Shown: piece by piece, positions 421 to 64,000 of the stretch
How the letters are laid out: each line of letters opens with the position of its first letter
Position numbering within the stretch: position 1 is the first letter of the stretch
NCBI RefSeq assembly: GCF_004010195.1
Contig: NC_057726.1
Location: 14,828,572-14,892,571, forward strand
Direction: 5' to 3'
Source of the DNA: Chiloscyllium plagiosum
Taxonomy: Eukaryota
Length of the DNA stretch: 64,000 bases
Notes under the pieces: model-generated
Seen by the model: only the letters and a program-made list of their open reading frames with translations
The model's database searches: none
Told to the model about the DNA's origin: nothing
Position numbers and translations under genes: made by a program

Positions 421-2504
421 ACTAGGCATGTAGAACAAAATGGGAGATTTCAGATGAAATGTCACTGGTTGTATATTTGTATTTTCATGTTAAATTGTAA
501 ACAAAATGCAATATGCAATAAAAGTGCATGCTGAATCCAGCAGTGTCCAACTTATAAGTGATTCATTGTCAACACCCTGAGTAGGAATGTTTACTTAGCT
601 CTGTGACTGATTCTATCTATATCGTAAGCATAAAATTTAATTTTAAAGCTTCTATTTTCTAAAACATCATAAATGTAATGGTATGAAATATATGTGCATG
701 AATCCCAGGATGTATATATGTAATCACATATGTGTCATCTGAAAAAACTTGTAGAAGCTTTCAAACATTCATTATAATAGCCTCCAGCATGTCATGAGAG
801 TGCGTTGCTCCTCTGCTAGTCACTCAAAGGGCTATATTCCAAAGCCAACAGCAATTGGAATATCATTTACACTTGAAACTATGACAATAATGCTTCTATG
901 TTAGCCTTGTAAACATTATTCGGAAATTAAAACTAAACAGTTTTAAAGAATGTGGAATCTGTGATGAATGATTTATGTGTGATTAGGTTTTATTAAAAAC
1001 TTTGGTCCCAAAGTTGGCTTCTCTAATCCACAAGTGCTAGTCTGGTGTGGTTTCACTCTGGTTAGTTTTGCAGATCCTGATTAATTCTTCTCCCCAGAAA
1101 AGAAAACCTTGGAGCAGGGTCATATGATATGTTGTTACTATTTGAACTGGATATGGGAATAAGAATTATATAGACTGCTCCAAAACAGTTATATTAGACT
1201 CGAATGTTACCTCTGTTTCTCTCTCCATAAATACTGCCAGACCTGCTACGTTGCTCCAGCACTTTCTGTTTTTATTTCTGATCTCCTCCATCTGCAGTAT
1301 TTAGCTTTTATAGCAATATAATTGGTTAAAATCTGGCATGGTTTTTGAATTATTCCAATGGTTGATCATTTGCTCATTTCCTATCTCTGAAGGAACTAAT
1401 TAGTGCCAATGAGTTTCAACAAGTATTAATATTTATTGAACCATTGACTGTGTTGTGGACACTTCTTTTGAAAGTAAAGCATCCACGTTTCCTTGGTTAC
1501 ACTTTTGATATTTTTGCAAAACACTTCTTTCCATTGGAACCATTCTCAGATGTTAAGTAATGTACATTAGAAAACGCTTGAGAAGAGCAGTAATTGCTGC
1601 CTTTTTGTATTTTTGCTGTGGGCTGTTGAACGTGTTCAATTATTTACAGTTGCATCAACTACCCCATTCTATACCAGTTATGGGAAAATTAGTTGATATT
1701 ACGTTAACTGCAAACAGTGAAAAATATTGTGTTCTATTTTAAATAACCACTGCTAAATAGTTTAGCATGGGTGTGGTTCTACCAAACGTGGCTTCCAAGC
1801 TAAGACATACAAGATGTCATTTATTTACCTCCAATCATTTTAGAAATAAATTAACTTCAGTGATTGTGCCCAATCTCCTTTGAAATTGTGGTTTAATTGA
1901 TTAGTTATACACACTCAACGCAAACGTCCATCAAGGCATGAATGAAGCTGTTTCCTCAGGACTCTGTTGTCATCTCTGATTAAGCAAATGCTTCTAGCCT
2001 GCCTTGTTACACTGAGGTATCCCAGTTTGTGGGCTGGATACACAGAAAATAACAATACAAGATGAGTTCCAAGATACTGACCCGAAGGAGTAAGGCTGTG
2101 GCAAATACAATTTTTCTACTCAAGTCATGTGTTGTAAGATGGTGCGATGTGAGTTGTGCAGGTCCATATACTCAGCATTGTAACCTTCCTTTGTGGCACA
2201 CACTCCAGTTGTTTAAAGGGCAGCAGATTCTATATTGAATAATAGATGGTTAATGGCAAACTGTTGCCCTAGGGAAAAAAAGTTGCAACAATAAAGAGGC
2301 AGCTCCTGATAGATGTAAAATAGTCCCCACTTTTCTACCCTTTCACAGAGCAAGACCATTCGAGGGAGAACAAATTAAAACACAAAAGAAATATTGATGT
2401 GGCAACAATATTAGCCAGTTCTTTTATGTAGTGCCTCTCAAGGAAAAGAACATTCAAAACATTGTTGTGGTTCTGTTCGCCGAGCTGGAATTTTTTGTTT
2501 TGTT

Positions 2505-2544
2505 GCAAACGTTTCGTCCCCTATCTAGGTGACATCCTCAGTGC
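2505..2544 (-). ncRNA. Minimal hammerhead ribozyme motif (Penelope pLTR)
   Basis: Reverse complement reads gca CTGAGGA tgtcacctagataggggac GAAA CG TT tgc. This gives the core CUGANGA/GAAA, stem II gtc.cct/agg.gac and stem I gca/tgc. Confidence 0.75.
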
Positions 2545-2907
2545 TTGGGAGCCTCCTGTGAAGCACTTCTGTCGTGTTTTCTCTGGCATTTATAGTGGCC
2601 TGAGCCTGCCGCTTCCGGTTGTCAGTTTCAGCTGTCCGCTGTAGTGGCCGGTATATTGGGTCCAGGTCGATGTGTTTGTTGATGGTGTTTGTGGATGAGT
2701 GCTATGCTTCTAGGAATTCCCTGGCTGTTCTTTGTTTGGCCTGCCCTATAATGGTGGTGTTGTCCCAGTCGAATTCATGTTGCTTGTCGTCTGCATGTAG
2801 CCGGCCACTACAGCGGACAGCTGAAACTGACAACCGGAAGCGGCAGGGACAGGCTACTATAAATGCCGGAGAAAACACCACAGAAGCGCTTCACAGGAGG
2901 CTCCCAA

Positions 2908-2947
2908 GCACTGAGGATGTCACCTAGACAGGGGACGAAACGTTTGC
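2908..2947 (+). ncRNA. Minimal hammerhead ribozyme motif (Penelope pLTR)
   Basis: gca CTGAGGA(2911-2917) tgtcacctagacaggggac GAAA(2937-2940) CG TT tgc. Stem III is the palindromic ACGT and the predicted cleavage triplet is GUU. Confidence 0.78.
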
Positions 2948-5633
2948 AACAAAAAAAAAATTTCCAGCTCGGTGAACAGAACCACAACAACGAGCACCCG
3001 AGCTACAAATCTTCACCCAAACTTTGAACATTCAAAACAATTTCTCGGGAGCAGTTAGATAGATGCTGAACAGTAGATTGAACATTTTAATGTTAGGTTC
3101 TTAACAGGTTTCAGTAGATGGAGAGAGATATCAAAATGAGTGAAGTGGTTCAGGAAAAGGACAGAAAGATCAGGCAAAATCTCTGGAGGATCACGCAGAT
3201 AGTGGCGAGGAAGGTATTGTGGAGTACACAGTAATCAATAGGCAGGTGAACGAAAGAATGCAGGCAAGGGAAGATTTCCTGGAAGGAAGTCATGAAGGAA
3301 TTTGACAATGAGGAGAAAGATGGTGAAGTAGATGATCTGGGGCAGGAGGATTCAACGTAGATTGTGAGGATAAGCCTGGGCACTTGTACTCTTCATCGAA
3401 GGCAATAAATAGGTTTCTAAACAAATTGTAATTACTGAAGGAGGAGAAGTTGATGAAGAAGACAGTTTTTAAAAAATCAGTCTTCAATACATTAAAATGT
3501 GGGTGAAGCTTTTATGAATTAAGGGTGAAGGGCTTTTATGAATAAACAGCAATCAATTTGAGATGGAAGAAAGCAATATTGACAACAAACTAGATACATT
3601 TGTTTGATTTCTTTACCACATTGGTATCCCTCTCTTCAGCTGTGTGGGTTCCTTTCTACCTGTCTATATCTATCTCCTTCTAAAAGAAGCATTCTAAAAA
3701 CCTCCCTCTCCGAAAAGTCTTCAATCACCTGTCCTAATATCTCCTTGACCTTAGTGCTATCAGACTTTTGACCATAGGAACTCCAAAGCAGATGTTACTG
3801 GGGCCAAATTAGGACGGCCAAAAACTTTTATGAATCCACCTTTGCTGTTGCTAGGATGAGATGTGTAAACGGTTTGCAAACAGTTCCCCTTGACTGAGTT
3901 AAATAGTTAAATATGGTACAGGAAGTGGTCACAAATACTGTGTTTGTGTTTCTGCGCACAGGATTCAGGCAAACAGAGGAGGTGTGACGAGACTCACAGC
4001 AGGAGAAATGTTGCTTATCACACTCCGAACTGACGTATGGCACAAAATGCTGTGTATAAAGATAGTCACCAGTTATAGGAATGCACATTGGATTGGTCTG
4101 TCCTGTTGTTAGGATTGCTCTGGGTTCAGGAACGGGACTTAATTTAGGTTCAATTAATTCTCTAAAATCATAAATTAGTTTTAGGTTTAATTTCCTATTT
4201 GCTCAAATGTGAAGCAACAGATGAAGTTTCTCTTTTATTGCTGGGTGTTAAATCAGCAGTGGTACACTGGGGACCCATTTTACGCACAGCTCAAAGTTCT
4301 ACCTGAGAAATGAAAATGGAGAGGGATGCAGAGCATATGGCTGGTGACCAATACCCTTTCTCTGTTAAAAGTGAAAATCATCACAATATTATCTCCATGT
4401 GGTGTGGCCTCAAAGTTTATCTGATAATGGTCCTCTAAAGTGCCTTGGAAGAATTTACCACATTAGTGGATGCTAGATAAATGCAAGCTTTTATTGTTCC
4501 ATTCCATTGTAGTGTAACAGGCTCTGTAGAGTACTGGAAGTATTTAAATAGGCTGGTCATGGTTTGGATCCTCACAGTTAAGTATTTAGTATTAAAACTA
4601 CAACTTGGAACTGCATAGCATCTTTAAATAATGAAACATCCCTCGGTTTTCCAGCAGCATTATGAAATGAAATATGGCTCCAAGCTTCATAAAGAGATAT
4701 TAGGACAATGACCATCAGTTTGATCAAAGCAGTCAGATTTAAGGAGTTTCCAAAAGGAGCGAGAGAGGTAGAGATGTTTAAAGAGGAAATTCCAGAGCTA
4801 AGAGCCAAGGCAGTAGAAGGCACAGCCAACAATGATGGAGCCATGAAAATCAGAGATGCTAAAGTGGCTAGAATTGGACAAAGGCAGATAAATTTGAGGA
4901 TTGTAAGGTTGGAGGAGGTTCCAGAGTTAGTCTGAGAGGGATCAGGAAGGGATCTGACAAGAAGGATGAGAAGCTGTGGCTCTGTAGGTAGCAATTGCAC
5001 CCTGAGTCAGATATTTGCAGGTTCAAGTCTCACTCCAGAGACGGGTTTAAAATTACCGACTAACTGTCCAGTGCAGAACTAATGAATGGGGCTCTGAGAC
5101 AATCTGCAGTAACCATGTCCTCAGCAATTGTAGCTCAGTCTTTGGATTGTGTGATCCCACAGACTCTTGCCTGCTGCTTGTCTCTTCATGGATTCTACAA
5201 TCTCTTAGGCACTTGCACTCTGAGGAACTGCATGGGCTTCCTTGGCTGATAACTCTGAGTGCCTAGCATCCCTTTTTTGTCCTTTTCCTACAGCATCCAG
5301 ATCCTTTCACTCTCATCACTATTCTAACATAATATTTACACTTAGATATAGATGTTACTGAATACAACTCTCTAAAACAGTCTTTCTCTCCTGCTCCATT
5401 ACATGTTCCTCTTTACTAACATCTGCATTTGCATCATTGTCATTGTCATATCCCATTGTACCAGAAGTGGTACACCATAGGAAGTGCCGCCTACAGGTGA
5501 GAGATTAAATCAAAGTCCTAACTACTCTCCCCAGTGGACATCTACAATTAATAGAGTTCTACTTCAAAATAGAGTTGAGGAGTTCTCCTGTTCTGGTCAA
5601 TACTTGGCATCATTCAATAACACTTGTCATAGT

Positions 5634-5845
5634 CACTACCATTGTATTCTAACAGATGAAAGGCTTAACAGACAATCAATTTTTCAATGTATAATTTCAG
5701 TTACATCACACTGCAAATTTTTGCTATAAATTCTATGTTACGATCGAGTCCTCCACTGCCACCTGATGAAGGAGCCTCGCTCCGAAAGCTAGCGTGCTTC
5801 CAATTAAACCTGTTGGACTATAACCTGGTGTTGTGTGATTTTTAA
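5634..5845 (+). mobile_element. Penelope-like (Neptune-type) terminal fragment with hammerhead motif
   Basis: 12-bp TSD acttgtcatagt at 5622-5633 and 5846-5857. Contains CTGATGA a ggagc ctc gctcc GAAA GC TA at 5763-5791. Confidence 0.75.
5759..5796 (+). ncRNA. Minimal hammerhead ribozyme motif
   Basis: Intact core CTGATGA (5763-5769), perfect 5-bp stem II ggagc/gctcc, GAAA (5784-5787), palindromic AGCT stem III and CUA triplet. Confidence 0.78.
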
Positions 5846-5857
5846 ACTTGTCATAGT

Positions 5858-6057
5858 GTGGAGGTGCAGGTGTTAGACTGGAGTGGAAAAAGTCAAAAAT
5901 CACATGACACCAGTTTATAGTCCAACAGATTTATTTGAAACTGTAAGTTTTCAGAGCCCCCACTCCTAGCTGTGTGAAGAAGGAGCAGGGAGTTCCAAAA
6001 GCTTGCGGTTTCAAACAAACCTGTTGGGCTATAACCTGGTGTGGTTTGATTTTTGAC
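5858..6057 (-). mobile_element. Palindromic non-autonomous Penelope-derived mini-element (older copy)
   Basis: Inverted arms at about 5894-5966 and 5975-6056 around a tagct axis, plus a tail of about 36 nt. Same architecture as 62545-62752 in the opposite orientation. Diverged TSD ttgtcatagtg / ttgttatattg. Confidence 0.65.
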
Positions 6058-15785: not shown

Positions 15786-15792
15786 GTAAACT

Positions 15793-15810: not shown

Positions 15811-16025
15811 CCCTGCGATTGGATGAGATTCTGAAGATTCCCAGGAGGTGCAGGTGCCAGCGCCTTGAAGGTCTTTCACTTCATCTCGAGCACAGATTTG
15901 GCCCATTTGCGTAAGAGGACTGGGAATCTGTGGATCACACCAGCGCCGGGGTTCAAATCGAATAGGGTAGGGTTAAGAGTCGTGGCTTAAATAATCCTAC
16001 ATAGAGCCTCATTCTAAAAGAATAA

Positions 16026-17701: not shown

Positions 17702-18105
17702 CAGGGGAAGGCTGAGGTGGAGGTGGGCAGCCCACAAGGTACAGGTAAGCCACTTTCCCCTTATGCTTGGCAATGAAGATTTGCTTATGCTAATCTCTTC
17801 TACTAACCTTATGGGCACTGAGACATGTCCCACCTCTGTATTGAGCGCTGAGATTGCAAAGTGTGGACAACATGTTCAATATAACAATGATGTGTATAAG
17901 TCAATGCCTACCTCTATGTTATATGTGGAAGGTACACCAGTTACCTTTTTGGTAGATACAGGGGCAACATATTCAGTCCTTAAATTAAGCCAGTTTAGAC
18001 AATTGACAATTAGGATGAGTGGAAAGTTCCCGAATATAATGGGTGCATCAGGAGTCGTGGTGCGAGAGAGATTTTCCACACCCCTCTTGTCCGAAACTAG
18101 TAATG
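17702..18105 (+). pseudogene. pro: Retroviral aspartic protease, C-terminally truncated
   Basis: VEGTPVTFLVDTGATYSVL (catalytic Asp codon 17955-17957) and flap-like IMGASG. Ends abruptly at the inverted LTR fragment. Confidence 0.9.
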
Positions 18106-18176
18106 GGGAAACATTTGAGTTCTTATTTTCTCATTCCCTTGCCGTGGACATAACTGTCTTTATGTTTTCCTCAGCT
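18106..18176 (-). repeat. Inverted 71-bp fragment of the ERV LTR at the pol deletion junction
   Basis: Reverse complement of 19381-19451 with one mismatch. Carries the 3'-LTR alleles (cacggc, tttccc). Confidence 0.92.
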
Positions 18177-18182
18177 ATTTAT

Positions 18183-18242
18183 TGATTATTGATAAAGGAA
18201 CAAGCAATGAATAAACATTGCTTGTTCCTTTATCAATAATCA
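18183..18242. repeat. Perfect 27-bp inverted repeat with an AATAAA loop
   Basis: tgattattgataaaggaacaagcaatg-aataaa-cattgcttgttcctttatcaataatca. Confidence 0.95.
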
Positions 18243-19013
18243 GACCATGATGATGGGTATAATATGGGCCTGTGGAGAGAAAGGGTACCACCATCTTCCC
18301 CTGGGATGGAAGGGGCGCTGATACCCCACGATACTATCCATTGGCACAAAAGTGTTCATCCCAAGGGCAGGTAACTGACGCACCCGAAGGGACATCCCAC
18401 AGCATTGGAATGGGCACACACTCGCAGACCCCTGGGCTACACCAGGAGCGAACATTGGGTGGTCTATTATCTTGGGAGCAGGAATAACGGTAGCAATAAA
18501 CAAGATTAATGGCCTCGCATATAGTGTATTATTGCTAGCTAATGAGATGGAGGAAGGCCGAGCACTCATTCACACTGAGTTAACGGCGGTTAGGGAAGCA
18601 GTGATACAAAATTGACTAGTGCTAGACATACTAACGGCCGAGAGAGGGGTGTCTGCAAAATGTTAGGTACCTCATGCTATTTTAATATTCCTGATGAGTC
18701 CCAAAATATCACTTGTGTAATAAATCATATGAAGGCAGCGAAATGACCGCCTCCCCCAGCAGGTGACGCCTGGTTCCGATGGCTCACCTCCCTTTGGGGA
18801 GGGTGGGGGTATTGGATCCTACACATTCTACTGGTTGTAGGACTGGTCTTACTCATAGTGCTTTGTATAGGACCCTGCTTGTGTACCTGCCTACACTGCT
18901 TGCTTATGAGGGCAATAGGATGTCAAATGGTAAAACTATCAGTGGCCCCATGGCAGGAAGATCCGATTACGTGGACCCCACCCTATCGTGACGTTGACAA
19001 GTGTGACGTTTGA
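18211..19013 (+). pseudogene. env: Retroviral env remnant (SU C-terminus plus complete TM), gamma-type; missed by the ORF track because of stops and a frameshift
   Basis: WACGEKGYHHLPLGWKGR*Y, furin site RTRR (18379-18390), hydrophobic IGWSIILGAGITVA, ISD VIQN*LVLDILTAERG, VCKMLGTSCYFNIPDES (decayed CX6CC), TM WILHILLVVGLVLLIVLCIGPC, stop at 19011-19013. Confidence 0.93.
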
Positions 19014-19181
19014 ACATGGGCTGTGTACAGGGCACACCAGAGAAAGTGACGATTCCACCACAAAGCTGTGTTACAGGTAGGTGATGTCCGAGGAAAGGCC
19101 TGGTGTTCCCTAAGCATTTTTGATGTATAGCTATTCTGGCTCTGTACTTTTTTTGGTTGTTGTCTTTTGTCATAAAATGAC

Positions 19182-19195
19182 AAAAAGGGGGAAAA
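19182..19195 (+). promoter_or_regulatory. Polypurine tract
   Basis: aaaaagggggaaaa immediately before the 3' LTR TGTAA. Confidence 0.88.
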
Positions 19196-19576
19196 TGTAA
19201 TGGAAAATTAACAGAATTAACATTTAATGTGAAATCTGAAAGAGAATGCTTTGCTAAACTTAATACTTTTCTGAAGTTTGCAAACACTTTGCTGAATTCT
19301 GCAGTCGAGGAGACAGCTTGTCTTTGCTGAACTTTATAAACATTCAACCTGGCCTTGCGAGCAGTTGAATTCAGCAAAAGAGCTAAGGAAAACATAAAGA
19401 CAGTTATGTCCACGGCAAGGGAATGAGAAAATAAGAACTCAAATGTTTCCCAGCCCTTGTCCTCGAGCGCGTGATACGAATGGTATAAAAAGAATATGTG
19501 AATTTTGTTCATTGCTCTTACACAAGGCATTTTTGCCAAGTGTATTGGTCCTGCATGCAGAGGGTTAAAAATAAAG
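19196..19576 (+). repeat. ERV 3' LTR, truncated just after the polyA signal
   Basis: Colinear with 15356-15731. The last ~54 bp of the 5' LTR are absent. Confidence 0.93.
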
Positions 19577-19697
19577 TGAGAACTGCCGATGCTGGAGATC
19601 AGAGTCAAGAGTGTGGTGCTGGAAAAGCACAGCAGGTCAGGCAGCATCTGATGAGCAGGAAGATCGACGTTTTGGGCATCAGCCCTTCATCAGGAAT
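19573..19697 (-). mobile_element. Penelope-like terminal fragment with hammerhead motif (GAAA decayed to AAAA)
   Basis: Reverse complement attcCTGATGAagggctgatgcccAAAACGTCgat. Same family as 9465-9593 and 7348-7437. Confidence 0.7.
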
Positions 19698-19965
19698 GGG
19701 TCAAGATTTAAAAGGGTCATAATGGGCAACTTTTTCACACAGAGGATGGTGAGTGTATGGAATGAGCTGCCAGAGGAACTGGTGGAGGCTGGTACAATTA
19801 CAACATTTAAAAGGCATCTGAATGCATATATGAATAGGAAGGGTTTGAAGGGATATGGGCCAAGTGCTAGCAAATGGAACTATATTAATTTAGGATACCT
19901 GCTCGGCATGGATGAGTTGGACTGAAGGGTGTGTTTCTTTGCTGTGCATCTCTACGACTCTATAA
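19698..19965 (+). mobile_element. CR1 LINE 3' end
   Basis: GNFFTQRMVSVWNELPEELVEAGTITTFKRHL, followed by the 3' UTR and tail. Confidence 0.8.
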
Positions 19966-20236
19966 CAAAATGGCTGCTATAAGTCACCTAACTATACAAC
20001 AACAAGTTCAAAGAGGATTACAGAGGGTTATCCCAGGCATCTAAGGATTCTCATCCATGAAATTAATATCTTATTGATGACATATTGTGAGAAGGTCAGC
20101 AGTGAACAGAACCACCAACTGGGAGAAAAACTGTTTACAAAATGGCAACATGGAACATGACAGCTTTTTGCAAAGGCCACCTTGTAACAAGTGAGCACAT
20201 TACCTGCTAATAATATAAAACTGTACAGACAAAGAG

Positions 20237-20754
20237 TTTTGAGAAGATTTGTAGCTCAGGTTGAGGTTCTGGATGTAGGTTTACTCGCTGAGCTGGAAGG
20301 TTATTTTCAGACGTTTTGTCTCCATACTGGTTAAATCTTCAGTGAGCATCCAGACAAAGCACTGCTGATGATTCCTGCTTTCTATTTATATGTTTTGGTT
20401 TGGGTTGGTGATGTCACTTCCTATGGTGATGTCATTTCCTGTTCTTTTTCTCAGGGGGTGGTAAATCAGGTCCAATTCAATGAGTTTGTTGATAGAGTTC
20501 CAGTTGGAATGCCAGGCTTCTAGGAATTTTTGTGCATGTCTCTGTTTGGCTTGTCCTAGGATGGATGTGTTGTCCCAGTCAAAGTGGTGTCCTTCCTCAT
20601 CTGTATGTAAGGATACTAGTGAGAGTGGGTCATGTTGTTTTGTGGCTAGTTGATGTTCATGTATCCTGGTGGCTAGTTTTCTGCCTGTTTGTCCAATGTA
20701 GTGTTTGTTACAGTCCTTGCACGGTATTTTGCTCAGTGAGCAAACCTACATCCA
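20237..20754 (-). mobile_element. Truncated Penelope element with a short inverted pLTR piece
   Basis: Reverse complement of the GIY-YIG/pLTR region at 35480-35957. Decayed hammerhead at 20307-20345, inverted stub at 20731-20754, and aaagag TSD (20231-20236, 20755-20760). Confidence 0.8.
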
Positions 20755-20869
20755 AAAGAGAGATTCCATTTTGAATCGTATTAAAAAACCTCTCATCAGT
20801 GTAAGAGGGTGACATCTCATAACAACTAATGGTCTGCTATAGAAAATAACTAGGCAGCAGATAACTATG

Positions 20870-32325: not shown

Positions 32326-32825
32326 NNNNNNNNNNNNNNNNNNNNNNNNNNNNNNNNNNNNNNNNNNNNNNNNNNNNNNNNNNNNNNNNNNNNNNNNNNN
32401 NNNNNNNNNNNNNNNNNNNNNNNNNNNNNNNNNNNNNNNNNNNNNNNNNNNNNNNNNNNNNNNNNNNNNNNNNNNNNNNNNNNNNNNNNNNNNNNNNNNN
32501 NNNNNNNNNNNNNNNNNNNNNNNNNNNNNNNNNNNNNNNNNNNNNNNNNNNNNNNNNNNNNNNNNNNNNNNNNNNNNNNNNNNNNNNNNNNNNNNNNNNN
32601 NNNNNNNNNNNNNNNNNNNNNNNNNNNNNNNNNNNNNNNNNNNNNNNNNNNNNNNNNNNNNNNNNNNNNNNNNNNNNNNNNNNNNNNNNNNNNNNNNNNN
32701 NNNNNNNNNNNNNNNNNNNNNNNNNNNNNNNNNNNNNNNNNNNNNNNNNNNNNNNNNNNNNNNNNNNNNNNNNNNNNNNNNNNNNNNNNNNNNNNNNNNN
32801 NNNNNNNNNNNNNNNNNNNNNNNNN
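32326..32825. other. Assembly gap (500 N)
   Basis: Run of N inside a CR1 copy. Confidence 0.99.
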
Positions 32826-34753: not shown

Positions 34754-34792
34754 TTAGCTTATTCCCAGATAGGTTGTACCACATAATGATCT

Positions 34793-35959
34793 TTGAGAAA
34801 ATGTGTAGCTCAGGTTGAGGTTCTGGATGTCGCTTTGCTCACTGATCTGGAAGGTTCATTTTCAAATGTTTTACCACCATACTAGGTAATATCTTCCAAC
34901 CCAAACTTTGGGTCTGCTACGTGGATGACACCTTTGACATCACTAAATGAAACAAATTAGAGGAAACCTTCAAGACCATCAAAAATTCCCTTACTGGCAT
35001 AAAATTCACTAAAGAGGAGAAAAATAACAACAAACTGCCATTCCTAGATGTCACAGTAAAGCAAACAGCCAATGGAAAACTTCCAACAAGGAAAACAACA
35101 CATACAGACCAAATATTGAACTACAGAAGCAATCATCTCAACATCCACAAACAAAGCTTAATCAGAACATTATTTCAATGAGCCACTACACATTGCAGCA
35201 CAGAGGAACTATGCAGAGCAGAGAAAAATTACCTATACAGTATATTCAAAAAGAATGAGTACCCAATGAAAACAGTCCACTGATTTCTCAGCAACAAACC
35301 TAAACAAGCAAACAAAATGCGTGCAGAAACCATAGCAACTCTCCCCTACATCAAAGACATCTTGGAAATGACTGCCTTGGCATCATGGTAGCCCACAAAC
35401 CCACCAACACACTAAAACAGCCCCTAATGAACATGAAAGACCCTTTACAGATAACAAGCAAAACTAATGTCATTTACAAAATACCATGCAAGAACTGTAA
35501 CAAACATTGGACCAACAGGCGGAAAACTAGCCACCAGAATACATGAACATCAACTAGCCACAAACAGACATGACCCTCTCTCACTAGTATCCTTACATAC
35601 AGATAAGGAAGAATACCACTTCAACTGGGACAATGCATCCATCCTTGGACAAGCCAAACAGAGACACGCATGACAATTCCGAGAAGCATGGCATTCCAAC
35701 CGGAATTCTAACAACAAACACATTGATTTGGACCCCATTTACCACCCCCTGAGAAAAAGAACAGGAAATGACATCATCATAGGAAATGACATCACCACAG
35801 GAATGACATTACCAACTCAAGGAACCCCAAACATATAAACAGAAAGCAGGAAACATCAGCAGTGCTTCATCTGTTGGCTCACTGAAGATGTTACCTAGTA
35901 GGGTGATGAAATATCTGAAAATGAGCCTTCCAGCTCAGCGAGCAAACCTACATCCAGAT
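34793..35959 (+). mobile_element. Penelope element remnant: inverted pLTR, RT C-terminus, GIY-YIG endonuclease, pLTR with hammerhead motif
   Basis: WVCYVDDTF at about 34909-34935, FTKEE..KLPFLDV, NVIYKIPCKNC..IGPTG..LATRIHEH. Hammerhead tca CTGAAGA..GAAA tatc tga at 35879-35918. Imperfect TSD cataatgatct/catactgatct. Confidence 0.88.
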
Positions 35960-38618
35960 CATACTGATCTAAGAAATAATCCCAAAAGCACTCTACAATC
36001 GTGTCTTCCATTTTACCCTTCCCCATCTAATTTGTCCAGTCAATATGCAGATTAAGAATGACACATTATAAATGTAGTGTCCTCACATGCACTGTATCTG
36101 ATTTATACTTTGTCCTGCAGTGAGACCACTCTTCACAGGCCTATAGATAACTCCCAGCTGTGACTTCTTTCTTTTCGTATACCTTGTTTCCAGCCAAACA
36201 GATTCCATGCATCTAATGCATCTATATCACTACTCACCACTGCATTTATATCATCCTTTATAAACAAAACTAACACATTTCCTTTTTGTTTTTGCCTTTT
36301 GTTCTGGAGCATGTTAAACACTGAGCTCCCAGTCCTGACCACTCTTAGTAGAAATCTTATGATCAATCTTAGTAGAAATGCAGCATTCTTTCAGATAAAG
36401 AGCTTTTATCCTTGTTACATATTCTGATTCTAATTTCTGCTGCACTCTTCTGTGGATATTTTCTGTACCTTACAGCCAAACTTTCATTATCAGTCACCAC
36501 TTCTCGAGCCAACACCTCTGCCCTCTTATCTCTTTTTAATTTTTAAAAAACTTGACCCTCCCCAATTAATAAGTTAAAAGCCTTATTGACAACCCTAGTT
36601 GGACGATTTGCCTGAAAATGGTTCCCATTTTGGTTTAAATGAAACCCATCCCAAACAAAATCTCTCTTTCTCTGGTACTGGTCTCAGCATCCAATAAATC
36701 AGGACCCATTTTTCCCATATCAATCTTTGTGCTACACATTTACCTTTCTAATCCTTCTTTACCTATGTCAATTTGCAAGTGGCTCAGATAGTAAGCTTAA
36801 GATTATTAACTTTATAGTTCTGCTTCCTAATTTAGCCCCAAAGTGCTCATAATCCCTCAACAGAACCTCCTTCCAAGTCCTATCTATTTCACTGGCATCC
36901 GTACGAACTTTAACATTTGAACCCTTCCCTCTCATTCCAAGTTTATCTCCAGCCAAGAGGAGATGACCTGAACCATGGCGCCCGGTAGGCAGTACATCCT
37001 TTGGCACTCTCTGTCTTTGCTGCAGAGAACTTTCAATATTTCAATATTTGTGCTGCTTTGCCATGGCTTTTCCCCTACATTTCATAATCTAAAAAACATC
37101 CATTCCAATCACCAACGTGGCACCTCCCATATCCACTTCTCACCAGCAAATTAGATTCCAGCATAAACAGATATAAGCTCCCAAGATTTTGTCTTAGTTG
37201 CTTTTCAATACTTCGCTGTAACTTGTGAGCATTCTCACATGACTGCCTGACTTAATTGCCAAATTGTTATGTTAATACTTGTGCACAAAGTATGGAGAAA
37301 TCTGTTCAAAACAGCACCACTGCAGGTATGAAATTATCAGGTGAATGCAGGTCTATGAAGCTTAATGAGACTGCTAAACACATTGTGAAATTTCAAGATT
37401 TGGCCAACAGTCAGGCAATACTCAGAAGTAAAGCAAAAGAACCTCAAGGGATCTGAATATCCCTCAGAAGCCACAGGTGTGCAAAGCACCATGCTCAATT
37501 CAAAGAACTGAGAACTTTAGAAATCCTGGGAGGAAAGCTTAAGTTGTTTACACCATTAGCTCTTGGTAAAAAGGTAGCACAAAATCCTGAGACACTTAGA
37601 CAGTTCAAGCAACATCTGTGGAGAGAGAAAAAGAGTCAATGTTTCACAGTTGACGGCTATTGTGGTTATTTTGCATTGGTTGACAACTTACCATGGTTCA
37701 CATAATAGTCACATTTCTCATTGCTGAAGATGCGCATTGACCTTTTTCATTTCCAGCAATTATGCAGTTGTCATGTGTGATATATTTGCTTTATTGGTGT
37801 AAGTTGCTTATCACATAAGACCTTCTAATCTTCTAGAAGGAATCATAGATTTGAAATTTATTCAATATTACCTTTTGTTTGCTGGGTCCGAAGGCATATC
37901 AATTCCAATGCTCGAATTCCACATCTCAATTTTAAAGTGCTGAGGTAAACTTTGCACACAGTTTGTCTTTTCTGATTTCAATAAGCATTTTTTTTGCCCA
38001 GCTAACTTAATATTAAAATAGTCACAAGTACTATGGTGCAAATAGCCATGGTTGTATCACAAATATCCATATCATCATGCATACATTTGTTGGATTGTGC
38101 AGTCATTACAGAAAGGGACAATTATTTAGAATGCATTTTCACATTCAAATACATTGCTGAAATTAAAATTTTTAAGCATTTTCTCTATGACATTGTGGCA
38201 AATTGCTGGAACCATTAGGAGTATAACTCTAAAAATTATGAGTGCAAAGTATGCTTTGAATTAAACTTTTTGAATATTTTTGCTCTCCCACCCCTGGGAC
38301 TTTTGTGATTCTGTTTGAAAAAAGCAAAAACATTCTAATAAAAAGTTTGTAATGTTTTATCTGGTTTCCAAAGGGGTGGCAGGTTGCTACACCATTGGAA
38401 GAACATTCAGGCAAAAAGTATATTTGTCTTTAAAGAAACTGCGAATATTTTTGATGTCAAAAAGCAGCGAGTTGCATTCCGTAGTGCATGTGACTTGCAA
38501 GCACATGTGTCAATTTTAGCAAATTTGGAAATTTTTTTACTCTCTGTGAAAACTGGCGGTGAGAATGGTTTGTTTTTGGAAAGGAAGAAGATGGGTTTTT
38601 TTTCCCTCCTGTTCTCAG

Positions 38619-38679: not shown

Positions 38680-40460
38680 CTCTCGCTACTTGTCCTGTTC
38701 CTTTCCGCACGTGGGGACGGCCGTGTTAGTTTGTTAGGCGCCGCGGGATTGGATGGGGCGTTTTGTTACTTCCTCCTGTTACACTGTAGCTAGAGAGAGA
38801 GAGAGAGAGAGACGCTGGCGGCGGATTCTGCGCATTAACTCAGCCCCCCTGTATATATGTGTGTGTGTGTCTGTATGTGAATGTGTGTATGTGTATGTGT
38901 GTATATAGCAGCCTGCAAAGGAGCACTCAGTACCCGGCCGCTAAAACAACAGCAGTGGCAGCAACAACCACCACAAACAGCAGCAGTCAGCAAGCAGCGA
39001 CCAGGTCTCAAAGCGGGATGGCTTCAGGAGATCTCTACGAGGTACTGTTCTTCATTTTTTCCCTGTATATTCGCTGATCGCCTCGACCCCGGCTCCCAAC
39101 TAGATATAACACGAGGGGGAAGCGTTTGAAAGTAGCCGCAGCTCTTCCGAGGCTGGCTTCCCCCCCACCCCCCTTTCCTCCCTCCTCTCTCTCTCTCTCT
39201 CTCGCCCTCTCTTGCACACAGGGCGAAACAGAATTGAAAAGCTGCGGGATGGCAGCGCTGTCGTTCTGCTTTCTCTTTAATGCTTAAATGCATTGCTTGA
39301 TGATAGGCCTTGGGAGGGGAGGAGGAGGGAGGAAGAGCTGAGTGAGTTAGCGGTTGCCTTGAAGGGAGGTCTGGGGGCAGATAGGTGCAGCCCTAACAGT
39401 GAGCAAGAGCCTGGAGGGGAGAGGAAGGGTAGGGAGATAGGAGAAGTCCAGGTTGGTGAGCTAGGAGAGGGATCGAGTGCAGCAGCAGCAGCAGATCTGA
39501 AGTGTGCACGCACTCATTTATTGACAGGACGCCCGGTGACTTTTCCGTTCGCATCAACGTGCAGGAAGCTCAGAGTGGATGGGAGTTTCAAATCTCTATC
39601 ACTCTTTATTCTGCACTGCTTTCTCTTTTTTTTTCTTACGTAAAGCTGCTGTCAGATGTATTTACAACCCCCCCCCCCCCGCCCCTCGCGATGGTCAGCC
39701 TGGAAGACTTGTGTTGAAACAACGTACCGCAAGGTATGGGGTACCAGGGTGCACTTTTCTGATGCACACATTATTTTTTCCCCCCTCCTCAATTACTTGG
39801 TCACATTTAGCAACCCGTAAGACGTGTTTGTTACTGGGGTCCCTGGAACGTCTGTACCTCAGTTTGATCATTAATAACCCTACTTGCCTTTACTATTGCA
39901 TTTTAACACAGTGAGATCCCGAGGTCCTGTGTATTATTTTCAGGGCTGCCTGTTAGTTCTGCCAGGACAAGTCATATTTCACCCTCCCCATGGCAGTGTT
40001 GTCACAGTGTTGGGTGATGTGCATTTTTAGAAGGTGGGTCAGTTATTCTCCCATGCACAACACAAGTATGTAAGTTAGTGCATTTTATTTTAAAAAAAAG
40101 GAAAGCACCATTTTTTTGGTAGGATTCGAGCAAGGACAGACGTCAGAGAGGCACCGCCTGATGATTACTTCCTGAGGTAATTTTACAAGTGGCTTTTTTA
40201 TATTTAAAAAATAGCCTCTTCTGGAAAAGTGGGTGACCAGTCGTGGGGGCTGCCAGTGAGCTTTTCCTTTCGTTGAAATGCACCGACCCAGTTCCCCCAC
40301 CACAACCATCACCCCTGGGGAAGGGGTTGCTTGGGTGTCTGTATGTGTGAGTGAGTGAGATGAAACGGAAGGGACTGGGGCGGTGTGACCGCCTCTATTG
40401 AGAAACGCGATGGAAATAGAGCGGGCGAGCGTTCCCACATTGACGGGGCGGCGGTGGGAA
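38680..40460 (+). promoter_or_regulatory. CpG-enriched, transposon-free promoter / first-exon region of CDYL2
   Basis: CpG density is visibly higher than in the flanks. E-box CACGTG 38708-38713, inverted CCAAT 38748-38752, ETS-like ACTTCC 38768-38773, (AG)n 38792-38812, TG-rich tract 38851-38905. Confidence 0.75.
39018..39041 (+). CDS. CDYL2: Chromodomain Y-like protein 2, first coding exon (MASGDLYE); exon 2 not found in the window
   Basis: ATG GCT TCA GGA GAT CTC TAC GAG|GTACTG matches the known CDYL2 N-terminus MASGDLYE(VERIVDKR), ends in a phase-0 donor, has a good Kozak context (gggATGG) and lies in a CpG island. The paralog CDYL starts MASEELYE. Only 8 codons support the call. Confidence 0.88.
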
Positions 40461-43079
40461 GTTTGTGGGTGGGAGGGTTAAAATAACTCTCCCCACCCAC
40501 CACCATACGGACAGGAACATCAAACCGTGCCTTCTCCCCCTACCCAGTTTAAAAAAAAAACAAACTTATGGTATCCGGGTGGAGAATTGGGAATCTCTGG
40601 ATGGGGCTGTTGGTTGGAGGTTGAGGATGAGGACCTTTTTTGTTCCAAAGTGGCATCTTTAAACTGATGCCGCTGTCAACACAGATAATTGTTGCCCAGC
40701 TCAATGGGGCGATCTCTTCTGGCGGTGTCTCCCAGACTTAATGGTGCAAACCCAATGGGAAGAAATTGAAACCAAAGAAGTTTGGGGGAATCATTGGTTT
40801 GCATCACCTATTGTGTAAGACCTGCCTTTGAGTGTTGCATTTGCATGGATTTCGACGGTGCTTGCCTTTGGTACCTGCGAGTGTTTGGTTTCGTTTGTCG
40901 CTCAGTTTGTATTGGATCAGTCCTACCCCCCGGTGATACTCGGGGGATTCTCAGCATCATTCTTCTAACCACACGGTTGCCGAAGGGGAAGGTGCCTTGA
41001 TCTAAACGTTTGCAAGCAACAGCAGATAATTGACCAGGACTGTGGAACGCTGCTTTTGGAGGCCAGAGCAATTTGCAAAGGGGAGAGATTGCGCCTGCAC
41101 GATATGACCCGGGTAGAATTGACAGCAAAAGCCAATACCGCACTGTGCTTCCCTACAGAAGGAAGATACAAGTATGGATTATACAGAAGGTTTGGAAAAT
41201 GCCTCGAGGATAAATTGAAAAGGAGGATCTAAACCAACCAATTGAAGTGATGTAGATGATGAAAAGCAAGACCTCTTTGACGTGAAGCCCACGACAAACC
41301 CAAAAAAAACAGATTTCTTTTTAAAAAATCAAAATGAGACATTTCTAGCAGAAATCAATGATTAAAGGAACAGATAAATGTACATTGAGAAATAGTCAAA
41401 TAGTTCATCATTTCAAATTGGTTTCACCTTGTTGAGTTTTCAGTAATATTGTTTCCATTCAGTTTTCATTTACCCATGGTACTGGGTGTCACTGGCTCAA
41501 GCATTTATTGCTCATCTGTGGTTGCCCTTGAGAAGGTGGTAGTGAGCTGCCTTCTACAACCACTGCAGTCTACTTGCTGCAGATTGTCCCATTATGACCT
41601 GAGGGAGGGAATTCCAGGATTTTGATCCAGTGATATTTCCAAGTCAGCTTGGAGGGGAACTTGCAGGTGGTGGTGTTCCATTTATCTGCTCTTGTCCATC
41701 TAGTTTGAGGTAGTCATGAATTTAGAAGGTGATATCTGAGAACCTTTGTCTGTGACTGTACGATGTCAAAGAGTGAATGATGTTTTATGAGGCTGAAAGA
41801 GATTTGTAATCAAATTTAGCTATCTTAAGAATCTGTGTGGAATTTGTGAATGGTCAACTTTCAATTCACCCTCATGTTGTGTTGCTCCATTATTGTTCAT
41901 TTTTGCACAATGTCTTGTCAACTGTAACACAGCATGGAACTTGCAAAGAAAATGACCTGTGTTTCTTATAAACAAAAAGGCATGGGTGACAGGCCAAAAT
42001 CATTTCAAAAACAGATTGTATGTTCCATAACTCAGTCAGTGACAGTTTGTTCATATTTTACCTCCGTTTAGAAGTACATGGATCCCAGTTCTGGGCTGCG
42101 CTAGTGTTAATTTGAACTGGGCATGTGTAATTTTGTAAGGAAATACCAACATATGAAATTGACAAGCAGTAAGAGAGCAGATGTCTGCACACTATGACAG
42201 CTTGAATATCATGACTGAAACCCTTCTCATCCAGCATTGTAATTTTAACAGAGGAAGAATGCAGGGTCAGTAAGGGACAAAGCTACTTTGGAAAGTTCTT
42301 CCAGAACCAATTGCCTTCTCCACAGGCATTCATCTGCTTTCTGTATAATCTCAACTTCACCCCAGTCAAGAACTGATCCAGTTGAAGACATACAGGTAGT
42401 CAAATCCTACCACAGCAGGTACGGAACACTAGGTATGCTGTGTGATATAACTTAATAAAATAATCTTTGGGTGAAAACTTGGGTTGTGTCGAATTTTTTT
42501 GTGTGTAACTTTTATGTGGCAAAATATTATTTTGGCCCAATTACAGTATCAAATTTCAAGTGGGTTGTGTACTCAGATTATTAATACTTCTGATGCCAAT
42601 GAAAATGGAGCTACTTGTTATTTCTGAAAATGTATGAAAGGTGGACTAGCTTCTAGATTAATTATGGCTCATTTCAGATTTTTCTGAAACAGAAGTCTGG
42701 TTGTGAATAAGATGTCCTTATTTAAAATAGAGCAGCAGTAGGGTTTTTCTTGAGGCCGTGCTTTTTCTTTTCATTGCATGACCACACAGAAGGTAAATGT
42801 TTCTTTCACAGCCACATCAGCGGAATGATGGAAAGATTGTCAACAATGCTAACTTGCTTAGCGGTAAGATGCTCACTCTCACATTGGGTTTAGTCAGGGC
42901 CACTCAGTTCCTCGCCTCATTACAGCCTTGGTCCAAACATGGACAGAAGAATTGAGTTCACAAGGTGATGTCAGAGTGACTGCCTTTTACCTCCAGGAAA
43001 AATTTGGCCAAGTGTGAATCAAGGACTCCAAACAAAACTGGAATCGAAAGGAATTGAGAGGGGCGCAGAAGACCTTGCA

Positions 43080-60619: not shown

Positions 60620-61835
60620 TTAAGAGGATTTGAATGTAGGAGTAGGGATGTCCTGCCATAGTTGTACAGGGCCTTGGTGAGGCCACACCTTGATTACTGT
60701 GTGTAGTTTTGGTCTCCTTATCTGAGGAAGGACATTCTTGCTCTTGTCAGAGTCCAGCGAAGATTCACCAGACTGATTCCTGGGACAGCAGAACTGACAC
60801 ACGAAGAAAAACTACATTGACTGGGCTTGTACTCACTGGAATTTCGAATAATGAGTGGGGAATCTCTTAGAAATCCAGATAGGACTGGACAGGCTAGATG
60901 TGGGAAGCATATACCAAATAGAGTCATAGAGATGTACAGCATGGAAACAGACTCTTTGGTCCAACCTGTCCAATCCGACCAGATATCCCAACCCAATCTA
61001 GTCCCACCTGCCAGCACCCAGCCCATATCCCTCCAAACCCTTCCTATTTATACACCCATCCAAATGCCTCTTAAATGTTGCAATTGTACCAGCCTCCACC
61101 ACCTTCTCTGGCCTATGCCCTCTAGTTCTGGACTCCCCAACCCCAGGGAAAAGACTTTGCCTATTTACCCTATCCATGCCCCTCATAATTTTGTAAACCT
61201 TCATAAGGTCACCCCTCATCCTCCAGGGAAAACAGCCCCAGCCTGTTCAGCCTCCCCGTATAGCTCAATTCCTCCAATCCTGGCAACATCCTTGTAAATC
61301 TTTTCTGAACCCTTTCAATTTTCACAACATCTTGCCGATAGGAAGACCAGAATTGCACGCAATATTCCAACAGTGGCCTAACCAATGTCCTGTACAGCCG
61401 CAACATGACCTCCCAACTCCTGTACTCAATACTCTGACCAATAAAAGGAAAGCATACCAAATGCCTTCTTCACTATCCTATCTACCTGCAACTCCACTTT
61501 CAAGGAGCTATGAACCTGCACTCCAAGGTCTCTTTGTTCAGCAACACTCCGGGGTCACAGTCCAAGAATAAGGGATAAACTACTCAGGATTGAGATGAGA
61601 AAGAGTTTCTTCACTCAAAGTTGTGAACCTGTGGAAATTCTCTCCCACAGAAAGCTGTTGGGGCTAGTTCTTTAGATATATTCAAGTGGGAGCTGGACGT
61701 GGCCCTTGCAGCTAAAAGGAGCAGTGGGTATGGAGAGAAAGTGGGAATGAGATACTGAGATCAGCCATGATCATATTGAATGGTGGTGCAGGTTCGAAGG
61801 GCCGAATGGCCTACTCTTGCACCTATTTTCTATGC
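60620..61835. mobile_element. CR1 (+) interrupted by a younger inverted CR1 (-) at about 60917-61548
   Basis: The plus-strand CR1 3' part resumes at about 61550. The minus copy is closely similar to 9975-10685. Confidence 0.8.
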
Positions 61836-62544
61836 TTAATTTTGTGTTCTATAATTAGGAGAGCTGATCACCTAGTCGTAATGTTGCTGTGCCATTAATA
61901 CCCAGGTAATATTCAGGAGACATGAGTCAAATCCCATCATGGCAAATGATGGGATTTAAATTCAGTAAAAATCTGCAATTAAGCAATAAAAACCATCATC
62001 GATTGTCATTAAAAACTGGTTCACTGATGTCCTTTATGGAAGAAAACTGTGTATGATTCCAAGTGTGACTCCAGACTCACTACTGTGTGGTTCAGTTTGC
62101 ACTGCCTTCTGAAATGTCCGAACCATCCCTTCAGTTGTTTCAATCACCAGAAAATCTCAAAAAAACATGAAACCAGACAGATCACCTGGCACCAGAAATA
62201 ACAACAACACGCGCTGCTTCGTTGACCCGGGAGAGGCCTTCTTATTGAGGAGCTAATGGCACACATCACATTCATGGAATTGTACCTCATACAAAATATC
62301 ACAAACCACCATCACCGTCCTGGGTATATCCCGTCCCCTCAGCTTGACAGATGCAGCAGAGGTGGTGGTTCTGTGATATGCAAGTGGAGGGGAGTTTGTC
62401 CTGAGAATCCTCAAAATTGACTCCAGACCTGATGAAATCTCACGACATCAGGTCAAATATCAGCAAGGAAACTGCCTGCTGATTACCGATTACCTCGGAT
62501 CCCCTATCTCCTCTCAAGCTGATGAATCATACTGTTCCATATTG

Positions 62545-62752
62545 TTAAAAATCACACAACACCAGGTTATAGTCCAACAGGTTTGTTTGGAAGCACACTA
62601 GCTTTCAGAGCACTGCTTCCTCATCAGGTAGCTAGATGAAGGAGCAGTGCTCCGAAAGCTAGTGCTTCCAAATAAACCTGCTGAACTATAACCTGGTGTT
62701 GTTTGATTTTTAACTTTGTCCACCCCAGTCCAACACCGGCTCCTCCACATCA
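62545..62752 (+). mobile_element. Palindromic non-autonomous Penelope-derived mini-element with a hammerhead motif on each strand
   Basis: 12-bp TSD tgttccatattg (62533-62544, 62753-62764). Inverted arms at about 62545-62626 and 62634-62713 around TAGCTA, plus a ~39-nt tail. Confidence 0.85.
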
Positions 62753-62769
62753 TGTTCCATATTGGATGG

Positions 62770-63335
62770 CATTTGAAGAAAGCACAGAATACAAAAGTAG
62801 AGATATAATGATGAAACAGGAATATTGTGTGCTGTTCTGGTCACCACATCACAGGAAGAATGTAAATGCTGTGGAGAGAATGCAGAGAAGATGTTGCTGG
62901 GGCTGGAGAATTGTAGCCACGTGGAGAGATTGGGGTTGTTTTCCTTAGAATAAGAAGGCTGAGGGGCAACGTGATTGAGGTATACAAAGTTCTGTGGGGT
63001 TGAGGGAGTAGACAAAAGAACCTGTTTCCCTTGGCAGAGAGTTCAAAAGCCAGGTGGTCATAGATTCAAGCTAAGTGGCAGAAGGATTAGAGGAAAAACA
63101 TTTTTATGCAGAGTGTGGTCAGTGTCCGGAATTCGCTGCCTGAGTTGGTGATGGAGGCAAAAATCCTACTCTCTGTTTAAAAAGTACTTGGGTCTGCACC
63201 TTAAGTGCTGTAAGCTGTGGTACAAAGGGCTGGGGATATGAAGGGAGATGGGATTAGAAAAGGTATTTAGGTGTTATTGGGTTGGCATGGGAAGATGGGG
63301 CCAAATGGCCCCCTTCTGTGCTGTATCATTTCTAG
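62770..63335 (+). mobile_element. CR1 LINE 3' fragment
   Basis: EYKSRDIM..EYCVLFWSPHHRK..ERMQRR and a CR1 3' UTR. Confidence 0.7.
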
Positions 63336-63584
63336 GTTCACTGAGGGTGTTTACCAGTCCTACTGATCTAGCCTGGTCAAGTCCTAAAGGACTGAGCCGT
63401 CAGACTAATCCTGTAGCAGATGGTGAGGAACCAACAAGGGGGATGAACATTCTTGATCTCACACTCACCAGTCTGCCTGCTGCAGATACATCTGTCCATG
63501 ACAGTATTGTATATAAGAATGACCACTGCACATTATGTGTGTTGACAAAGTCCCACCTTCACATTGATGACACCCTCTGTCACG

Positions 63585-64000
63585 TCGAGTGGAAAAAACT
63601 AAAGAGATGCTTGTTGTCTTCAGGAGGGCATGGAGTGACCACTCTCCACTTGACATTGATGGCTCCCCTGTGGAGATCGTGAAGAGCACCAAATTTCCTG
63701 GCGTCCACCTGGCGGAAAATCTCACCTGGTCCCTCAACACCGGCTCCATAGCCAAGAAAGCCCAGCAGCATCTCTACTTTCTGCATAGGTTGAGAAAAGC
63801 CCCCCCCATCCCCCCCATCCTCACCACATTCTGCAGAGGGTTCATTGAGAGCACACTGAGCTGCTGCATTACTGCCTGGTTCAGGAATTGCGCCGTCTTT
63901 GATCGTAAGACCCTACAACAGATAGTGAGGACAGCTGAGAAGATCATTGGGGTCTCTCTTCCCTCTGTTACAGACATTTACTCCACACGCTGCATCTGAG
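63585..64000 (+). mobile_element. Rex1-type LINE RT C-terminal fragment (runs off the window)
   Basis: KTKEMLVVFRR..KF.GVHL..NLTWS.N...AKKAQQHLYFL.RLRK..IESTLSCCITAWF. Confidence 0.8.

What the first reader, a model, noticed from the sequence alone, without database searches (positions are those of the whole stretch)
62533..62764. TSD-flanked ~208-bp palindromic mini-element carrying hammerhead motifs in both polarities
Seen: a non-coding insert with a clean 12-bp TSD, made of two ~80-bp inverted arms around TAGCTA plus a short tail. The minus strand reads CTGATGA g gaagc agt gctct GAAA GC TA gtg. The plus strand reads CT(A)GATGA a ggagc agt gctcc GAAA GC TA gtg. An older, independent copy with the same arm/axis/tail layout lies at 5858-6057 in the opposite orientation. 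Known: Penelope-like elements carry minimal type I hammerheads in their pseudo-LTRs and often make inverted 5' ends. Inference: the shared architecture suggests a family mobilised as a unit, i.e. a small rod-like ribozyme retroelement with a ribozyme motif on each strand (retrozyme/viroid-like layout). Full fold-back would compete with ribozyme folding, so activity is not established.
Basis: partly seen in the sequence, partly recalled or inferred. Interest (0 to 1): 0.8.

Follow-up and report, generated by a model that had tools for sequence, protein, structure and literature searches.

The report
Inverted Penelope retrotransposon end fragment
This is a short, back-to-back pair of end pieces of a Penelope-type jumping gene, a common by-product of how these elements insert; only one of its two ribozyme motifs is complete, so it is most likely ordinary genomic debris, not a viroid-like RNA.

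Summary
The 208-bp insert (62545-62752), its exact 12-bp target-site duplication and its ~80-bp inverted arms are real. The two-ribozyme claim is half right. The minus strand has a full minimal hammerhead core with a damaged stem II. The plus-strand arm starts inside the core and lacks C3-U4. A rod fold beats the ribozyme fold by about 40 kcal/mol.

The layout (duplication, tail-less arm, inverted arm, 39-nt tail, duplication) is the published signature of Penelope-like element (PLE) insertions. Three insertions of two other PLE families in this window share it, with arms of 27-1063 nt; one has complete cores on both strands. The same repeat also occurs un-inverted with about 130 nt more upstream sequence. 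The older copy has a different junction, and arms group by copy (5 sites) rather than by position (1 site).

Best reading: a truncated, 5'-inverted PLE insertion made at integration, not a unit-mobilised retrozyme. Still open: both inverted copies turn within about 15 nt of each other, inside the ribozyme, so a junction hotspot or a palindromic master is not excluded (n=2; no genome-wide search was possible).

The parts
62533..62544 (+). Left target-site duplication (12 bp)
   Evidence: Exact match to 62753-62764
62545..62635 (-). Tail-less arm (91 nt): 3' part of a PLE pseudo-LTR on the minus strand, ending at the inner family boundary
   Evidence: 88.6% identical to the un-inverted copy at 5758-5845; the outer end coincides within 1 nt in 3 of 3 tail-less arms of the family
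62591..62633 (-). Minimal type I hammerhead motif: complete core (62627-62621), extra base after A9, damaged stem II, GAAA, palindromic AGCT in place of stem III, predicted cut between 62599 and 62598, 3-bp ungapped helix I
   Evidence: not detected by Rfam models; activity untested
62629..62635 (.). Inversion junction at the self-complementary hexamer TAGCTA; these bases align with the repeat's own sequence just upstream of the core
   Evidence: Young tail-less arm and un-inverted copy align through this stretch with one substitution and one indel
62636..62713 (+). Tailed arm (78 nt): the same pseudo-LTR part on the plus strand, starting inside the hammerhead core; intact 5-bp stem II but no C3-U4
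62714..62752 (+). 39-nt A+C-rich (69%) tail, present at one end only
   Evidence: homologous tail in the older copy; 30-40-bp tail described for PLEs (PMC8557442; PMC11167929)
62753..62764 (+). Right target-site duplication (12 bp)
5858..6055 (-). Older two-armed insertion of a related subfamily, opposite orientation, different junction, both cores broken; flanked by a 10-of-12 duplication (5846-5857, 6056-6067)
5634..5845 (+). Un-inverted, tail-less copy of the same repeat with about 130 nt more upstream sequence and a complete core at 5763; exact 12-bp duplication (5622-5633, 5846-5857)
2448..3039 (.). Comparator: unrelated PLE family, 14-bp duplication, 339-nt tail-less arm with endonuclease remnant, 190-nt tailed arm, 35-nt tail, complete cores on both strands
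34782..35970 (.). Comparator: third PLE family, 10-of-11 duplication, 75-nt tailed arm, 1063-nt tail-less arm with coding remnant
20231..20760 (.). Comparator: same family as 34782-35970; 464-nt tailed arm carrying a GIY-YIG reading frame, 27-nt tail-less inverted arm; only a 6-bp candidate duplication

Best explanation
A dead, severely 5'-truncated and 5'-inverted insertion of a Penelope-like retrotransposon, built at the moment of integration. Proposed steps: (1) the element's GIY-YIG endonuclease nicks both target strands 12 bases apart [shown here: the 12-bp duplication; both-strand nicking and extension shown in vitro for an anole PLE]; (2) each nick primes reverse transcription on the pseudo-LTR RNA, one at the outer and one at the inner of two start sites, so one arm has the 39-nt tail and the other lacks it [shown: the ends; inferred: the assignment to two priming events]; (3) both cDNAs stop early, near the 5' half of the hammerhead, and are joined there by 1-4 nt of microhomology or by the self-complementary hexamer, giving head-to-head arms [inferred]; (4) the hammerhead letters appear on both strands only because each arm is a copy of the same pseudo-LTR [shown]. 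A fold-back (self-priming) route to the second arm is a variant of steps 2-3 that I cannot exclude. The copy is now decaying and a transcript would fold as a rod, not as a ribozyme.
For: One tail at one end in 5 of 5 two-armed PLE-type insertions found in the window, from 3 families; tail-less/tailed arm lengths 91/78, 91/70, 339/190, 1063/75, 27/464. The comparator families carry endonuclease remnants: the frame at 20389-20745 is GIY-YIG-like (Atlas score 0.94, 203 of 256 features; Pfam gave no hit) and 2650-2799 is 71% identical to it. The same repeat occurs un-inverted with a longer upstream part. One outside record (P0002, E 3.9e-12) translates tail plus arm and continues through the core into other sequence instead of folding back (inferred from amino acids only). 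Informative sites among the four arms: 5 by copy, 1 by position, 1 crossed, of 62 columns. Junctions differ between the two copies. Literature: inverted 5'-truncated copy plus 30-40-bp tail at one end (PMC8557442); two reverse-transcription starts flanking the tail, both strands nicked and extended (PMC11167929); palindromes at inverted junctions and 8-10-bp duplications (PMC3846280); minimal hammerheads 100-700 bp apart on opposite strands (PMC4209133).
Against: The two inverted copies of this family have nearly the same arm lengths, much closer than the spread in the other families would suggest. Under one of two alignments their tail-less arms end at the same base. The best-fit junction test lets both breakpoints vary, so it can never score below the fixed model; the margins are only about 2-5 matched bases. 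Grouping of arms by copy would also arise if a palindromic master were homogenised by conversion. No reading frame links this particular family to a PLE protein in the window. The young copy's arms differ by a 2-nt indel that the un-inverted copy shares with one arm: this needs two templates or later slippage.
Confidence: 0.78

Rival explanations
1. A palindromic non-autonomous PLE parasite: one inverted insertion became a master that is transcribed and re-copied whole by the PLE protein from the tail, the hammerhead letters being passengers. Central deletions came later.
For: Both inverted copies turn within about 15 nt, and both retain AGCT near the centre. The young copy equals a perfect palindrome centred on TAGCTA with 3 nt missing (sequence). 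Pseudo-LTRs alone can mobilise sequence in trans (PMC3846280).
Against: Junctions are not identical; diagnostic bases group by copy 5 to 1; un-inverted copies exist (P0002); reverse transcription would have to cross a rod of about -120 kcal/mol.
Confidence: 0.15
2. One reading: a rod-like RNA with a working hammerhead in each polarity, processed and circularised like a retrozyme or viroid.
For: Rod fold; core letters recognisable on both strands; one complete core.
Against: Plus core lacks C3-U4, and C3 changes abolish cleavage in a PLE hammerhead (PMC11167929). Minus stem II is damaged. The hammerhead-compatible fold costs about 40 kcal/mol. On either strand the antisense arm is made first, so prefixes ending just past the cut site already fold back. 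No tandem unit. Single minimal hammerheads showed no cleavage (PMC4209133). The ends are not at cleavage sites.
Confidence: 0.04
3. A miniature inverted-repeat DNA transposon (MITE) or a microRNA hairpin.
For: Short, non-coding, inverted arms, duplication; Rfam microRNA models match weakly.
Against: The repeats are not terminal (39-nt tail outside one arm); arms are PLE-type repeats with a hammerhead; all 6 Rfam matches are far below their gathering scores and reflect the hairpin alone.
Confidence: 0.03

Closest known systems
Endonuclease-bearing Penelope-like elements (Penelope/Poseidon/Neptune type): 5'-truncated copy with adjacent inverted copy and tail (Craig et al. 2021, PMC8557442; Arkhipova et al. 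2013, PMC3846280)
   Same: Head-to-head inverted pseudo-LTR pieces, 30-40-nt tail at one end only, short duplication, palindrome at the junction, hammerhead in the repeat.
   Different: Extreme truncation: no coding sequence in either arm; the junction falls inside the hammerhead. Clade not assigned because no reading frame of this family was found.
Minimal type I hammerheads of metazoan PLEs (Cervera and de la Pena 2014, PMC4209133)
   Same: Core, unpaired base between 9 and 10.1, short helix I, palindromic 15-16 region in place of stem III; pairs on opposite strands already reported 100-700 bp apart.
   Different: Here the two motifs abut, one is cut in the core and the other has lost G10.1-C11.1; stem II is 5 bp against 7-8 bp in the schistosome examples.
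Poseidon element of the green anole, PAc (Frangieh et al. 2024, PMC11167929)
   Same: Two reverse-transcription starts bounding an A+C-rich tail downstream of the hammerhead; both strands nicked and extended.
   Different: Joining of two cDNAs into an inversion was not shown there; no sequence homology with this family was tested.
Metazoan non-LTR retrozymes (PMC7229834; bioRxiv 10.64898/2026.07.22.740005)
   Same: Small, non-coding, type I hammerhead, related to PLE pseudo-LTRs.
   Different: Retrozymes are head-to-tail tandem repeats with a same-strand hammerhead in each unit; this is a single head-to-head pair with no tandem.
Hammerhead viroids (recalled, no call)
   Same: Rod-like fold, hammerhead letters in both polarities.
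   Different: Genomic insertion with duplication and PLE ends; one core broken; no unit-length processing sites.

Membership tests
Penelope-like element insertion | Target-site duplication | tested here: met
   Exact 12 bp
Penelope-like element insertion | Inverted 5'-truncated copy adjacent to a direct copy | tested here: met
Penelope-like element insertion | 30-40-nt tail at one end only | tested here: met
   39 nt, 69% A+C
Penelope-like element insertion | Minimal type I hammerhead in the terminal repeat | tested here: met
   By motif inspection; best preserved in the copy at 5763; Rfam does not detect it
Penelope-like element insertion | Repeat belongs to an element encoding telomerase-like RT and GIY-YIG endonuclease | not testable with these tools
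   No coding remnant of this family in the window (profile search); no genome-wide or eukaryotic DNA collection on hand; shown only for the comparator families
Non-LTR retrozyme | Head-to-tail tandem units, each with a complete same-strand hammerhead | tested here: not met
   No tandem in 61500-64000 except a 9-bp unit elsewhere; one motif per strand
Non-LTR retrozyme | Self-cleavage and circular RNA | not testable with these tools
   Needs bench work or RNA data; predicted fold argues against
Two-polarity ribozyme RNA (viroid-like) | Complete hammerhead core on both strands | tested here: not met
   Plus core lacks C3-U4
Two-polarity ribozyme RNA (viroid-like) | Unit ends defined by cleavage sites | tested here: not met
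   Predicted cut sites lie more than 50 nt inside the ends
Unit-mobilised palindromic element | Identical junction in independent copies | tested here: inconclusive
   2 copies; junctions within about 15 nt but not identical
Unit-mobilised palindromic element | Arm differences shared by position across copies | tested here: not met
   1 site by position, 5 by copy, 1 crossed, of 62 columns; small sample, conversion not excluded
MITE | Terminal inverted repeats reaching both ends | tested here: not met
   39-nt tail lies outside the right arm

The most novel reading that the evidence does not exclude
This family has a strong inversion hotspot, or a true palindromic master, centred on the 5' strand of its hammerhead: a 200-bp hairpin parasite that a Penelope protein copies as a unit, or direct genomic evidence that the folded ribozyme or its self-complementary hexamer stops reverse transcription and joins the two cDNAs. 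Either would give a testable handle on how PLE inversions form.
Probability: 0.2. Interest if true: 0.55.

Novelty: new member of a known kind. Interest (0 to 1): 0.17.

Why it matters
As read here it matters little: it is a tidy example of the published inverted-plus-tail PLE insertion, and a warning that ribozyme motifs on both strands of a palindrome follow automatically from inverting a PLE end. If the junction proved sharply peaked over many copies, it would bear on an open question, how PLE inversions are made (two-strand priming or self-priming) and whether the hammerhead plays a part, and a unit-mobilised hairpin would be a distinct kind of non-autonomous PLE.

Tried and rejected
Rfam: no match at gathering score in the whole window; E-value searches of the insert, of the isolated minus arm and of the un-inverted copy gave 6, 6 and 3 weak matches, none a hammerhead. 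More copies: a profile search of the window found only the five arms it was built from, plus one match at E 4.9. Bacterial/archaeal genomes: 0 matches to a 30-mer; 2 matches to a 20-mer, both limited to 20-24 nt and judged chance. Phage and plasmid collections: no match. Reading junctions from spurious proteins: two word-based searches found nothing; the full scan gave 3 hits, of which one (P0002) is a real homologue and two are low-complexity bacterial matches that I dropped; a search with P0002 found only itself. No paper holds any of four 16-base words of the repeat. An empty-site homologue spanning the insertion was not found in the window. tRNA-derived head: none. Two rows (the tailed arms) were mis-anchored and redone; two of the four crossed sites were alignment-edge artefacts, and repeats the count on the unambiguous 62 columns. 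Lunse et al. on PLE hammerhead dimers was not available. Unchecked: the genome outside this window, metagenome and viral contigs, Repbase/Dfam, RNA data, the preprint's supplements, and the figure supplements and GenBank file of PMC11167929 (text search empty); these could name this family or show its junctions.

Full report
Observation. The insert is real. An exact 12-bp duplication at 62533-62544 and 62753-62764 flanks 208 bp; chance is 8e-8 at fixed boundaries. It consists of a 91-nt arm on the minus strand (62545-62635), a 78-nt arm on the plus strand (62636-62713) and a 39-nt tail. The arms match at 70 of 78 bases with one 2-nt indel. Both strands fold as rods (-116.1 and -127.9 kcal/mol; 0 of 200 shuffles). 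The window is a repeat-rich eukaryotic region with three N gaps. From recall only, with no call behind it, the repeat landscape resembles that of shark assemblies.

Ribozyme motifs. On the minus strand the core is complete (62627-62621), followed by an unpaired base, a stem II with G-U at the conserved first pair and one mismatch, GAAA, a palindromic AGCT and a 3-bp ungapped helix I. This is the minimal hammerhead of metazoan PLEs as described in PMC4209133 (parts 1-2 of 4 read). On the plus strand stem II is perfect (5 of 5), but the arm begins inside the core: the 7-mer reads TAGATGA, or needs an inserted base and then has a G-G mismatch closing helix I. So neither motif is fully intact. C3 substitution abolishes cleavage in a PLE hammerhead (PMC11167929, parts 1-2 of 4 read). 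Holding the minus core open costs about 40 kcal/mol against the rod. Because the arms are head-to-head, either transcript makes the antisense arm first, and prefixes ending just past the cut site already fold back. Rfam finds no hammerhead here; I infer that its models do not cover minimal forms.

Other copies of this family. A profile search found five arms in three insertions. The older two-armed copy (5858-6055) has a 10-of-12 duplication and broken cores in both arms. A third insertion (5634-5845) is not inverted, has no tail, carries about 130 nt more upstream sequence and a complete core, and has an exact 12-bp duplication. Its upstream sequence aligns with the young copy's 'axis' with one substitution and one indel, so the hexamer is best read as the repeat's own sequence. 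All 3 tail-less arms end within 1 nt of each other and the 2 tailed arms within 4 nt. One outside record, P0002, encodes tail plus arm in translation and runs through the core into different sequence rather than folding back; only its amino acids were seen.

Unit or independent events. Over 62 unambiguous columns, 5 informative sites group the arms by copy, 1 by position and 1 crosswise. A unit with fixed arm differences predicts grouping by position. Fitting both breakpoints against window-derived templates put the young junction at about -7/+2 relative to C3 and the old one at about -13/+16, in 8 of 8 trials; a second fit that keeps the young tail-less end and starts the other arm at +7 to +13 scored slightly lower. 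The free fit cannot score below the fixed one and the margins are 2-5 bases, so I take from it only that the junctions differ and lie within about 15 nt. That closeness is the main point against my reading and is unexplained.

Comparators in the same window. Three insertions of two unrelated families show the same plan. At 2448-3039: 14-bp duplication, 339-nt tail-less arm, 190-nt tailed arm, 35-nt tail, arms 95% identical, complete cores on both strands. At 34782-35970: 10-of-11 duplication, arms 1063 and 75 nt. At 20231-20760: arms 27 and 464 nt, duplication uncertain. These carry endonuclease remnants (GIY-YIG by Atlas; no Pfam hit; 71% DNA identity between families). In 5 of 5 two-armed insertions the tail is at one end only. 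Hammerheads in both polarities are therefore a routine result of PLE inversion.

Mechanism. PMC11167929 shows that a PLE protein nicks and extends both target strands and starts reverse transcription at two sites bounding the tail, and that hammerhead activity is not needed for insertion in vitro. I infer that the two arms are two cDNAs primed from the two nicks, one at each start site, stopped near the ribozyme and joined by microhomology or the self-complementary hexamer. The joining step is not shown in that paper. PMC3846280 (passages) reports palindromes at inverted junctions and explains them by self-priming, which remains possible. The 2-nt indel shared by one young arm and the un-inverted copy, but not by the other arm, fits two templates better than a fold-back, though slippage could explain it. 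Confidence in formation at insertion: 0.78.

Comparison with known systems. PMC8557442 (passages) describes the inverted 5'-truncated copy and the 30-40-bp tail at one end as typical. PMC8969392 (passages) and PMC2377424 (passages) say the same, the latter noting inverted repeats that vary in size between copies. PMC4209133 already reports minimal hammerheads 100-700 bp apart on opposite strands. PMC6765202 (passages) notes cleavage as dimers and insertion next to existing copies; the primary dimer paper was not available. Non-LTR retrozymes are tandem repeats with a same-strand hammerhead per unit (PMC7229834, passages; bioRxiv 10.64898/2026.07.22.740005, parts 1-3 of 5 read); this insert fails that test. 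Short non-autonomous Penelope elements are mentioned for butterflies without structure in the passages seen (PMC6685494). It works like, and meets 4 of 4 testable structural features of, a PLE insertion; the link of this family to an RT-endonuclease gene could not be tested.

Novelty. Nine literature searches (listings and abstract openings only, apart from the papers named above) turned up no description of this family or of a unit-mobilised palindromic PLE derivative; Repbase and Dfam could not be checked. Verdict: a member of a known kind, interest 0.17. The novel reading not excluded, a junction hotspot at the ribozyme or a hairpin master, has probability about 0.2 and would deserve about 0.55.

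Noticed in passing
window 5622-5633, 5846-5857, 6056-6067: The same 12-mer target occurs three times: the older palindromic copy and then the un-inverted copy appear to have duplicated the same site, suggesting target preference or insertion beside an existing copy.
   Followed up: partly
window 2448-3039: A younger PLE insertion (arms 95% identical, 14-bp duplication) with complete hammerhead cores on both strands; its junction lies at a short palindrome near 2800-2805. A better 'both polarities' example than the finding.
   Followed up: partly
window 34782-35970 and 20231-20760: Two inverted insertions of one PLE family with GIY-YIG coding remnants; the tail sits on the short arm in one and on the long arm in the other.
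   Followed up: partly
window 7340-7437, 9495-9593, 19607-19698: Copies of a further repeat with hammerhead-like cores (7352 plus, 9588 minus), apparently un-inverted PLE ends.
   Followed up: partly
window 62594-62599 versus 62660-62665: A 2-nt indel just after the predicted cut site is shared by the young tail-less arm and the un-inverted copy but absent from the other three arms: two templates in one insertion, or slippage.
   Followed up: partly
window 15349-19576: LTR-type element: two ~380-bp repeats 95% identical (15356-15731, 19196-19576), an aspartyl-protease frame at 17673-18185, an inverted 75-bp piece of the repeat at 18106-18180 and a 27-bp-arm palindrome at 18183-18242.
   Followed up: no
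window 62200-62532 and 62765-63100: The insert sits in decayed LINE-like sequence; the right flank matches other repeats in the window. No copy spanning the empty site was found.
   Followed up: partly
window 38800-41200: Slightly GC-richer stretch with GA and TC simple repeats in opposite orientation, possibly a promoter or first exon.
   Followed up: no
window 10686-11112, 13931-14404, 32326-32825: Three assembly gaps (N runs); at least the first two lie inside reverse-transcriptase-like frames.
   Followed up: no
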